Part shown: piece after piece, positions 1,423-1,720 of the stretch
Layout of the letters: each line of letters begins with the position of its first letter
Position numbering within the stretch: the stretch's first letter is position 1
Virus record (IMG/VR): IMGVR_UViG_2562617057_000005
Reading direction: 5' to 3' (one strand)
Origin: a virus
Taxonomy: Duplodnaviria; Heunggongvirae; Uroviricota; Caudoviricetes
Length of the DNA stretch: 39,213 bases
Translations under genes and position numbers: made by a program
The notes under the pieces: generated by a model
Databases searched by the model: none
Seen by the model: the letters and a program-made list of their open reading frames with translations, nothing else
Told to the model about the DNA's origin: nothing

Positions 1423-1565
1423 CCAATGATCACTTATTGGTCATACAAATAAGATGACGGCATTTTACTCGCACGTTCCATGAAAATCCTTTGCAAAGCG
1501 TAATGTTTCAAATGCACAAAACTTTTATACTCTAAGAAATCAGGATTGCACCAGTACAAGCAGCC

Positions 1566-1720
1566 TGATGTTTGACGAGTTGAAGGGACGTGAGATAAAT
1601 GAATGGTGATTCGTGAGATAATTTCGAACGGGAGTGGGTTAAAACGAATGCTACCGAATAATTTTATGAAATTGTTTTGCTGTATGTGAAACGGTAGCAG
1701 TTCACAAAAAACAGAGAATA
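1566..1720 (+). repeat. putative prophage end (att-like) with Mu-type transposase-binding-like motifs
   Basis: 5'-TG at about 1566-1570, then TTGAAGGGACGTGAGATAAA resembling the Mu L1 end site (TTGAAGTACGAAAAA). Nearby are CGTGAGATAA twice (about 1589 and 1612), TTTCGAACGG and TGAAACGG. Position is ±5 bp. Confidence 0.4.

What the first reader, a model, noticed from the sequence alone, without database searches (positions are those of the whole stretch)
1423..1720. Prophage/host junction about 145 bp upstream of clcA with Mu-type end motifs
Host identity ends somewhere after the clcA start codon. From about 1566 the sequence begins TG and carries TTGAAGGGACG, a repeated CGTGAGATAA, TTTCGAACGG and TGAAACGG, which resemble the MuA-binding end sites of Mu. 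This implies transposition-mediated insertion into the clcA upstream intergenic region (hemL is divergent from clcA in E. coli K-12 and would lie beyond the other prophage end). The insertion may alter clcA promoter context.
Basis: partly seen in the sequence, partly recalled or inferred. Interest (0 to 1): 0.45.

Follow-up and report, generated by a model that had tools for sequence, protein, structure and literature searches.

The report
Left end of a BcepMu-type transposable prophage
The flagged stretch is a real host/prophage junction: the left end of a common, already described kind of transposable phage (BcepMu/B3 type, not Mu itself) that jumped into the spacer between the E. coli genes clcA and hemL, so it is ordinary.

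Summary
The junction is real, but it lies at 1580|1581, not about 1566. K-12 identity runs through 1580. The element starts at 1581 with 5'-TGAAGGGACG.

The repeated CGTGAGATAA is the core of two abutting 23-bp direct repeats, L1 (1581-1603) and L2 (1604-1626). A matrix built only from the published ends of phages BcepMu and B3 ranks these two sites first and second in the whole 39-kb window.

The transposase (7929-9698, minus strand) has an rve-type DDE catalytic domain. It is 67% identical to BcepMu gp09 and shows no detectable similarity to MuA. Its partner is an ExeA-like AAA+ ATPase, not MuB.

I traced the source assembly (GCA_000167915.2). The right end lies 78 nt past the window's last base. 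It ends ...GCGGCGCATCA and is followed by ACGAGT, the same six bases as 1575-1580, and then by hemL. The target-site duplication is therefore 6 bp, not Mu's 5 bp. Four near-identical prophages at other loci also have 6-bp duplications.

The early region of this prophage type occurs in 643 of 5,426 complete E. coli genomes.

hemL (66 nt from the insertion point in K-12) is more exposed than clcA (158 nt). This is known biology and of low interest.

The parts
1..1422 (-). clcA, the host H+/Cl- exchanger gene (context)
   Evidence: 473-aa ORF. The part tested, window 1200-1422, is 100% identical to K-12 DNA annotated clcA.
1423..1580 (.). Retained host clcA-hemL intergenic DNA, including the small ORF yadX (1434-1481, minus strand)
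   Evidence: Identical to K-12 locus L001 1724-1881. The yadX position is mapped from the K-12 annotation.
1575..1580 (.). Left copy of the 6-bp target-site duplication, ACGAGT
   Evidence: The same hexamer follows the right terminus in the source assembly (L010 3652-3657). It is single-copy in K-12 (L001 1876-1881). Four sister prophages each have a 6-bp duplication.
1581..1603 (+). L1, the terminal 23-bp repeat TGAAGGGACGTGAGATAAATGAA. It begins with the 5'-TG terminus and is the presumed outer transposase-binding site.
   Evidence: Best score in the window with a matrix trained on BcepMu and B3 ends (17.1 bits). It is in register with BcepMu L1, TGAAGAGAGGTGAGATATTTCCA.
1604..1626 (+). L2, the second abutting 23-bp repeat TGGTGATTCGTGAGATAATTTCG. 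It is the presumed inner transposase-binding site.
   Evidence: Second-best score in the window (13.8 bits). The same core CGTGAGATAA lies 23 nt downstream of the L1 core. The same register is seen in BcepMu, B3, an ST131 copy and at least 97 distinct viral-contig ends.
1627..1700 (+). Sub-terminal part of the left end. It includes the conserved block GTATGTGAAAC (1682-1692), about 101 nt from the tip.
   Evidence: It aligns with the left ends of the ST131 strain 751 copy and of BcepMu. It overlaps a minus-strand promoter-like match, TTCACA-18-TAAAAT at 1690->1661, which is not above the chance level. Function unknown.
1917..2561 (-). Accessory 214-aa ORF at the end of the early operon
   Evidence: PHROG 12870, function unknown. 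No Pfam, NCBIfam or PADLOC match. This left-end module is in only about 10 of 5,426 genomes and is absent from the ST131 copy.
2912..3298 (-). Mor-family late or middle transcription activator gene
   Evidence: Pfam Mor, E = 5e-41. It occupies the same end-proximal position as BcepMu gp01.
3270..3761 (-). GemA-like gene
   Evidence: Pfam GemA, E = 1.6e-40.
6752..7945 (-). Transposition ATPase (TnpB), an ExeA-like AAA+ protein
   Evidence: Pfam AAA_22, E = 5e-20. PHROG 296 'DNA transposition protein', E = 6e-92. No similarity to MuB. The true start codon is probably downstream of the ORF start, because relatives are annotated at 1,167 nt.
7929..9698 (-). Transposase (TnpA), an rve-type DDE enzyme that should act on L1/L2 and R1/R2
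   Evidence: Pfam finds rve only. 67% identity to BcepMu gp09 and 56% to B3 TnpA. No similarity to MuA. PHROG 310 'transposase', E = 4e-146.
38641..39213 (+). Gin-like invertase, the last gene before the right end. The right terminus lies 78 nt beyond the window.
   Evidence: An exact-protein look-up found L010, which has 0 mismatches over 3,573 nt with the end of the window. The right end reads ...ACATTTATCGCGCGGCGCATCA|ACGAGT|ATTTAAC, and the hemL ATG is 72 nt after the terminus.

Best explanation
Window 1581 onward is the left end (attL) of a complete 37.7-kb transposable prophage of the BcepMu/B3 type (GenBank classifies the close relative PhiKM in genus Bcepmuvirus). It sits in the clcA-hemL spacer of an E. 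coli strain.

The end consists of the 5'-TG terminus followed by two abutting 23-bp direct repeats, L1 (1581-1603) and L2 (1604-1626). The right end carries the same pair in inverted orientation.

Inferred mechanism: the phage's rve-type DDE transposase (7929-9698) binds these four sites and pairs the two ends. It nicks at the terminal ...CA-3' and joins both 3' ends to target DNA with a 6-nt stagger. The target is presumably presented by the ExeA-like AAA+ ATPase (6752-7945). Repair of the stagger gives the 6-bp duplication ACGAGT.

Shown here: the end architecture, its homology to BcepMu and B3 ends, the matching right end, the 6-bp duplications, the many different insertion sites and the transposase family. 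Inferred: protein binding to L1/L2, the cleavage chemistry, replicative transposition during lytic growth, and any effect on hemL or clcA expression.
For: Boundary:
- K-12 identity runs to 1580. A mobile element starts at 1581 and is found at about ten other loci.

Both ends of this very insertion:
- L010 (GCA_000167915.2) is identical to the last 3,573 nt of the window.
- It continues 78 nt to ...GCGGCGCATCA, then ACGAGT, then K-12 sequence, then hemL.
- An independent sequencing-run assembly (SRR9425317, L017) shows the same right junction.

Duplications:
- Four sister prophages have ends TGAAGGG...GCATCA flanked by the 6-bp duplications TCTGGC, TTTCTG, TTGGCA and CCGTAC.

End repeats:
- The tandem 23-bp repeats are in register with the BcepMu and B3 ends.
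- They are the two top matrix scores in the window, and 0 of 200 shuffles did as well.
- The same architecture occurs in at least 120 viral contigs, often at contig tips.

Proteins and gene order:
- The transposase is 67% identical to BcepMu gp09.
- Gene order is syntenic with BcepMu, with Mor and GemA next to the left end and the early operon reading toward it.

Literature:
- B3/Tn552-family transposases leave a 6-bp duplication, and TG...CA ends are conserved in Mu-like and B3-like phages (PMC8705779).
- BcepMu-related prophages with an rve transposase have TG...CA termini (PMC2628397).
Against: - No binding or transposition experiment exists for this element.
- The AlphaFold model of the transposase is poor (mean pLDDT 63, catalytic core below 50). 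The structural matches to IstA, TnsB and retroviral integrases have TM-scores of only about 0.12.
- Activity of this particular copy is not shown.
- The link to Tn552 was not reproduced by direct comparison. Only sub-threshold IS481, IS21 and IS3 profile hits were found. Staphylococcus was not among the ten most frequent genera listed in the plasmid tblastn.
Confidence: 0.93

Rival explanations
1. It is the end of a true Mu-type (MuA/MuB) prophage, and the motifs are MuA-binding sites.
For: The terminus is TG. The first bases, TGAAG, match Mu's right end, TGAAGCGGCG. Mu R1 and R2 score 11.0 and 10.2 bits with the end matrix. Mor, GemA and Gam homologues are present.
Against: There is no MuA or MuB homologue. 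Pfam finds only rve. No Mu or D108 record is among the rows shown or the genera counted for the 69 phage tblastn hits. The duplication is 6 bp in 5 of 5 insertions. The end has two abutting 23-bp sites rather than Mu's spaced L1, L2 and L3. The Mu left end does not match the matrix (2.8 bits). The early operon is inverted.
Confidence: 0.02
2. It is an ordinary temperate prophage inserted by a site-specific integrase at an attachment site in the clcA-hemL spacer.
For: A serine recombinase gene lies at the right end (38641-39213).
Against: That recombinase is Gin-like and is paired with gix-like inverted repeats around the tail-fibre genes. Near-identical prophages sit at many unrelated loci (ycbJ, ygfM/ssnA, an epimerase gene, the ybcJ-cysS region and others), each with a different 6-bp duplication. 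None of 5,426 complete genomes has an insert at this site.
Confidence: 0.01
3. The junction is real, but this copy is a fixed, no longer mobile relic. The end repeats would then be fossils with no present function.
For: Nothing here tests the activity of this copy. Some sister copies carry IS insertions or broken tail genes.
Against: In this copy both ends, the duplication and the transposition-gene ORFs are intact, and the overall gene order matches its relatives. Left ends 99.9% identical to this one are found at about ten other loci, which implies recent movement. Close relatives are deposited as phage records (PhiKM, KP12, Phi06_2974 B).
Confidence: 0.1

Closest known systems
Burkholderia phage BcepMu (Bcepmuvirus; Summer et al. 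2004) and the BcepMu-like prophages of Enterobacterales
   Same: - The transposase is 67% identical, and the partner is an ExeA-like ATPase.
- Gene order is the same, with Mor and GemA next to the left end and the early operon reading toward it.
- The termini are TGAAG...CA.
- Each end has two abutting 23-bp repeats with the core CG(Y)G(M)GATA(W)(W)T in the same register.
- The first ~110 nt of the left ends align.
   Different: - The host is E. coli.
- This copy has an extra 214-aa ORF and about 1.3 kb of accessory DNA between Mor and the left end.
- It has a Mu-like invertible tail-fibre segment with a Gin-like invertase at the right end, where BcepMu has an acyltransferase.
- The repeat sequences differ at non-core positions.
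Pseudomonas phage B3 (Beetrevirus)
   Same: The transposase is 56% identical. The early operon is inverted. A 6-bp duplication and TG...CA ends are reported for B3 (PMC8705779). The ends have 23-bp repeats in register.
   Different: B3 is annotated with different tail genes. Its end repeats are more diverged (for example GAAATA in place of GATAAA).
Escherichia phage Mu
   Same: It is also a transposable temperate phage, with TG...CA ends, several roughly 22-23-bp transposase sites per end, Mor/GemA/Gam homologues and a Gin-type invertible tail-fibre segment. Mu R1 and R2 weakly resemble the repeats here.
   Different: The transposase and ATPase families are unrelated at the sequence level. Mu makes a 5-bp duplication; this element makes 6 bp. 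Mu has three spaced sites per end. Mu's early genes read inward from the left end.
Tn552 of Staphylococcus aureus (p480 transposase with the p271 ATPase)
   Same: The BcepMu record annotates its transposase as 'Tn552/IS1604 rve transposase'. PMC8705779 describes the Tn552 transposase as related to B3 TnpA. From memory, and not tested here: Tn552 ends carry two direct 23-bp transposase-binding repeats, and insertion duplicates 6-7 bp.
   Different: Tn552 is a small transposon, not a phage. I did not reproduce the protein relationship directly: only sub-threshold IS481-type profile hits were found, and Staphylococcus was not among the ten most frequent genera listed in the plasmid search.

Membership tests
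Mu-type (MuA/MuB) transposable phage end | MuA-family transposase encoded by the element | tested here: not met
   BLASTP against MuA gives E = 0.48. Pfam finds only rve and no Mu transposase domains. No Mu or D108 record is among the rows shown or the genera counted for the 69 phage tblastn hits.
Mu-type (MuA/MuB) transposable phage end | MuB-type target ATPase | tested here: not met
   BLASTP against MuB gives E = 2.5. The ATPase here is AAA_22/ExeA-like.
Mu-type (MuA/MuB) transposable phage end | 5-bp target-site duplication | tested here: not met
   The duplication is 6 bp in this insertion (ACGAGT) and in four sister insertions.
Mu-type (MuA/MuB) transposable phage end | 5'-TG...CA-3' termini | tested here: met
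   TGAAG at 1581 and ...CATCA at the right end. This feature is shared with B3/BcepMu-type phages, so it does not discriminate (PMC8705779).
Mu-type (MuA/MuB) transposable phage end | Left end next to the repressor and transposase genes, with early genes reading inward, and three spaced MuA sites | tested here: not met
   Mor and GemA lie next to this end, and the early operon reads outward toward it. There are two abutting 23-bp sites only. The Mu left end scores 2.8 bits with the matrix.
BcepMu/B3-type transposable phage (rve transposase described as Tn552-related) | rve-domain transposase homologous to BcepMu gp09 and B3 TnpA | tested here: met
   67% identity over 581 aa to BcepMu gp09. 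56% identity to B3 TnpA. Pfam rve.
BcepMu/B3-type transposable phage (rve transposase described as Tn552-related) | ExeA-like AAA+ transposition ATPase immediately downstream of the transposase gene | tested here: met
   ORF 6752-7945 hits AAA_22 and PHROG 296. Relatives are annotated 'ExeA family protein'. Its position matches BcepMu gp08.
BcepMu/B3-type transposable phage (rve transposase described as Tn552-related) | 6-bp target-site duplication and TG...CA termini | tested here: met
   Seen in 5 of 5 insertions for which both junctions were read. The rule is taken from PMC8705779 and PMC2628397.
BcepMu/B3-type transposable phage (rve transposase described as Tn552-related) | Two tandem 23-bp repeats at each end, homologous to those of BcepMu | tested here: met
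   An independent matrix ranks 1581 and 1604 first and second in the window. At least 97 distinct examples occur in viral contigs.
BcepMu/B3-type transposable phage (rve transposase described as Tn552-related) | Insertion at many unrelated chromosomal sites | tested here: met
   About ten loci for the left end, further loci for the right end, and 711 places in 643 genomes for the early region.
BcepMu/B3-type transposable phage (rve transposase described as Tn552-related) | Replicative transposition and packaging with variable host DNA at the ends | not testable with these tools
   This needs induction and sequencing of virion DNA.
Tn552 transposase family | Detectable homology to Tn552 p480 | tested here: inconclusive
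   No Tn552 sequence was available for a direct comparison. NCBIfam gives only sub-threshold IS481, IS21 and IS3 hits. Staphylococcus is not among the ten most frequent genera listed in the plasmid tblastn. The relationship rests on the BcepMu record's annotation and, for the homologous B3 TnpA, on PMC8705779.

The most novel reading that the evidence does not exclude
The insertion rewires host genes on both sides. It would split the -35 hexamer of the best hemL promoter candidate (TTGACG-18-AATAAC in K-12). hemL, a haem-biosynthesis gene, would then be transcribed in this strain at least partly by read-through from the outward-facing invertase gene 150 nt upstream. On the other side, the conserved sub-terminal block at 1682-1692 would be part of an outward promoter (TTCACA-18-TAAAAT) that feeds transcription from the left end into yadX-clcA.
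Probability: 0.1. Interest if true: 0.3.

Novelty: already known. Interest (0 to 1): 0.12.

Why it matters
It matters little beyond correct annotation.

- It gives the exact prophage boundaries: window 1581 to 78 nt past the window end, 37,711 bp in all.
- It assigns the element to the right family, BcepMu/B3 type rather than Mu.
- It gives a usable signature for finding such ends: TGA, seven bases, YGMGATAWWT, thirteen bases, YGMGATAWWT, plus a 6-bp duplication.
- It flags hemL rather than clcA as the gene whose promoter region was hit.

The early region of this prophage type is in about 12% of complete E. coli genomes, including ST131 strains, so consistent naming helps comparative work.

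Tried and rejected
- Exact-pattern scans for the predicted right junction and for the left junction found nothing (genome contigs; metagenome contigs, right junction only). The strain is not a species representative.
- The first exact-protein look-up of the invertase failed because the ORF finder's start codon (38632) is three codons too early. The look-up with 38641 worked.
- The two key papers could not be read: Summer et al. 2004 and Toussaint & Van Gijsegem 2018. Their content is cited only through PMC2628397, PMC8705779 and PMC5977238.
- Two literature searches for the Tn552 end architecture gave nothing usable. A search for hemL/clcA promoter data returned no title that looked relevant, and I opened none of those papers.
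- The AlphaFold2 model of the transposase is of low confidence. The Foldseek matches only support a general DDE/rve transposase of the IstA, TnsB or integrase kind, and I give them little weight.
- The built-in promoter scan found nothing in the K-12 spacer. It found one match in the phage end that is not above chance. My looser scan gives candidates only.
- PADLOC, Pfam and NCBIfam gave no function for the 214-aa end-proximal ORF.
- TTTCGAACGG is not a separate site. It is the edge of L2 plus flanking bases.

Full report
**What is in the sequence**

clcA occupies 1-1422 on the minus strand. A megablast of 1200-2700 against 5,426 complete E. coli genomes matched clcA and its upstream DNA in nearly all of them, but only up to window 1580. 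From 1581 onward the query matched ten genomes at 98-99.9% identity, each at a different locus: next to ycbJ, ygfM, an L-ribulose-5-phosphate epimerase gene, nlpA, yeiE and others. No genome matched across the junction.

A three-way alignment with K-12 and strain R9 fixes the boundary at 1580|1581. K-12 reads ...TTTGACGAGT|ATTTAAC and the window reads ...TTTGACGAGT|TGAAGGGACG. However, the 'TG at about 1566' is host DNA. The true terminus is the TG at 1581-1582, which is 158 nt from the clcA ATG.

**What the element is**

The ORFs next to the junction are all on the minus strand and read toward clcA:
- a 214-aa ORF of unknown function
- Mor, GemA and Gam homologues
- an AAA_22/ExeA-like ATPase (6752-7945)
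- a 589-aa protein whose only Pfam domain is rve (7929-9698)

Lysis, head, tail and tail-fibre genes follow on the plus strand. A Gin-like invertase is the last gene in the window.

The 589-aa protein is 67% identical to the transposase gp09 of Burkholderia phage BcepMu and 56% identical to TnpA of Pseudomonas phage B3. It shows no similarity to MuA (E = 0.48), and the ATPase shows none to MuB (E = 2.5). Gene order matches BcepMu, where Mor and GemA also lie next to the left end. GenBank places the nearest deposited phage, PhiKM (95% nucleotide identity), in Bcepmuvirus.

**The ends**

The first 46 nt of the element are two abutting 23-bp direct repeats:
- L1: TGAAGGGACGTGAGATAAATGAA (1581-1603)
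- L2: TGGTGATTCGTGAGATAATTTCG (1604-1626)

BcepMu and B3 have the same arrangement at both ends, in the same register.

A position matrix trained only on the eight BcepMu and B3 sites ranks 1581 and 1604 first and second among all positions on both strands of the window. None of 200 shuffled windows produced a tandem pair that good. The core CGYGMGATAWWT occurs exactly only at those two places.

That gave 97 distinct 46-mers, often at the tips of 36-42-kb contigs. My own estimate of the chance expectation for that scan is about one.

An ST131 copy has a different accessory region but keeps L1 and L2 (TGATTAGACTTGAGATAAATGAC and AGGGAATAAGTGAGATATTTATG).

**The other end of this insertion**

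The window stops at the invertase stop codon. An exact-protein look-up of the invertase found contig AAKB02000001.1 of assembly GCA_000167915.2. I recall this as E. coli 53638, but I did not check that. The contig is identical to the last 3,573 nt of the window.

It continues for 78 nt to ...ACATTTATCGCGCGGCGCATCA. Then comes ACGAGT, then ATTTAACTTG... exactly as in K-12, with the hemL ATG 72 nt after the phage terminus. The reverse complement of this end reads TGATGCGCCGCGCGATAAATGTA CCTATTTCCGTGAGATAAATTAC, which is R1 and R2.

So the ends are inverted copies of each other, the duplication is the 6-bp ACGAGT (1575-1580), and the prophage is 37,711 bp long. An independent sequencing-run assembly shows the same right junction (L017).

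Four sister prophages read in full have 6-bp duplications: TCTGGC, TTTCTG, TTGGCA and CCGTAC. Published work states that B3/Tn552-family transposases leave 6 bp and that TG...CA ends are general (PMC8705779; see also PMC2628397).

**How it most likely works**

By homology, the rve-type DDE transposase binds L1, L2, R1 and R2 and pairs the ends. It nicks after the terminal CA and joins the 3' ends to the target with a 6-nt stagger. The AAA+ partner selects the target. Repair then creates the duplication.

The sequence evidence for this is strong. The biochemistry is inferred. The structure model was too poor to add much.

**Effect on neighbouring genes**

In K-12 the insertion point is 66 nt from the hemL ATG. 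It falls inside the best sigma-70-like candidate in the hemL direction, TTGACG-18-AATAAC, and splits its -35 hexamer. The best candidate in the clcA direction, GTGCAA-16-TATAAA (window 1551-1524), lies wholly in retained host DNA. These are consensus matches only. If any promoter was disturbed, it is more likely hemL's than clcA's.

**Novelty**

None in kind. BcepMu-like prophages and their Tn552-related transposase have been described since 2004 and were reviewed in 2018. The early region of this prophage is in 643 of 5,426 complete E. coli genomes. The transposase cluster holds more than 5,000 sequences across Enterobacterales. The only strain-specific fact is the clcA-hemL insertion site, which none of the 5,426 complete genomes shares.

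Noticed in passing
window 35492-35543 and 38529-38580; invertase at 38641-39213: A Mu G-segment-like invertible tail-fibre cassette. It has gix-like inverted repeats (core TTCCTGTAAACCNNGGTTTT) flanking alternative fibre and fibre-assembly genes, with a Gin-like invertase alongside. Relatives L012 and L014 differ from the window at 2,163 of 3,573 positions in this region, and their gene maps show the cassette in the opposite orientation.
   Followed up: partly
window 1627-2975: The left-end accessory module, which includes a 214-aa ORF (1917-2561, minus strand; PHROG 12870, no known function). It is present in only about 10 of 5,426 complete E. coli genomes, whereas the adjacent early region is in 643. 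The ST131 copy and the phages PhiKM and KP12 lack it. It may be a lysogenic-conversion or exclusion gene.
   Followed up: partly
window 1682-1692 (and 1661-1690, minus strand): A conserved sub-terminal block, GTATGTGAAAC, at the same offset (about 101 nt) from the left tip in the ST131 copy, and alignable in BcepMu. It overlaps the -35-like hexamer of a promoter-like match that faces out toward clcA. Its function is unknown.
   Followed up: partly
L020/L021 (phage Mu ends) compared with window 1581-1626: Mu's right-end sites R1 and R2 score 11.0 and 10.2 bits with the BcepMu-type end matrix at offsets 1 and 23, although MuA and this transposase share no detectable sequence similarity. This could be shared ancestry of the end sites or convergence.
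   Followed up: no
L001 1873-1902 (K-12), equivalent to the insertion point at window 1580|1581: The 6-bp target ACGAGT overlaps the -35-like TTGACG of the best hemL promoter candidate. In the lysogen that hexamer position reads TCAACG. The invertase gene reads toward hemL, with its stop codon 150 nt upstream of the hemL ATG.
   Followed up: partly
window 12070-12834 (minus strand): A Dam-like orphan DNA adenine methyltransferase lies in the region between the early and late operons.
   Followed up: no
L006 20567-23182 (strain MS1657 copy): One sister prophage carries an IS66-family (ISCro1) insertion among the head genes. Others have broken tape-measure or tail-fibre genes, so some copies are decaying.
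   Followed up: no
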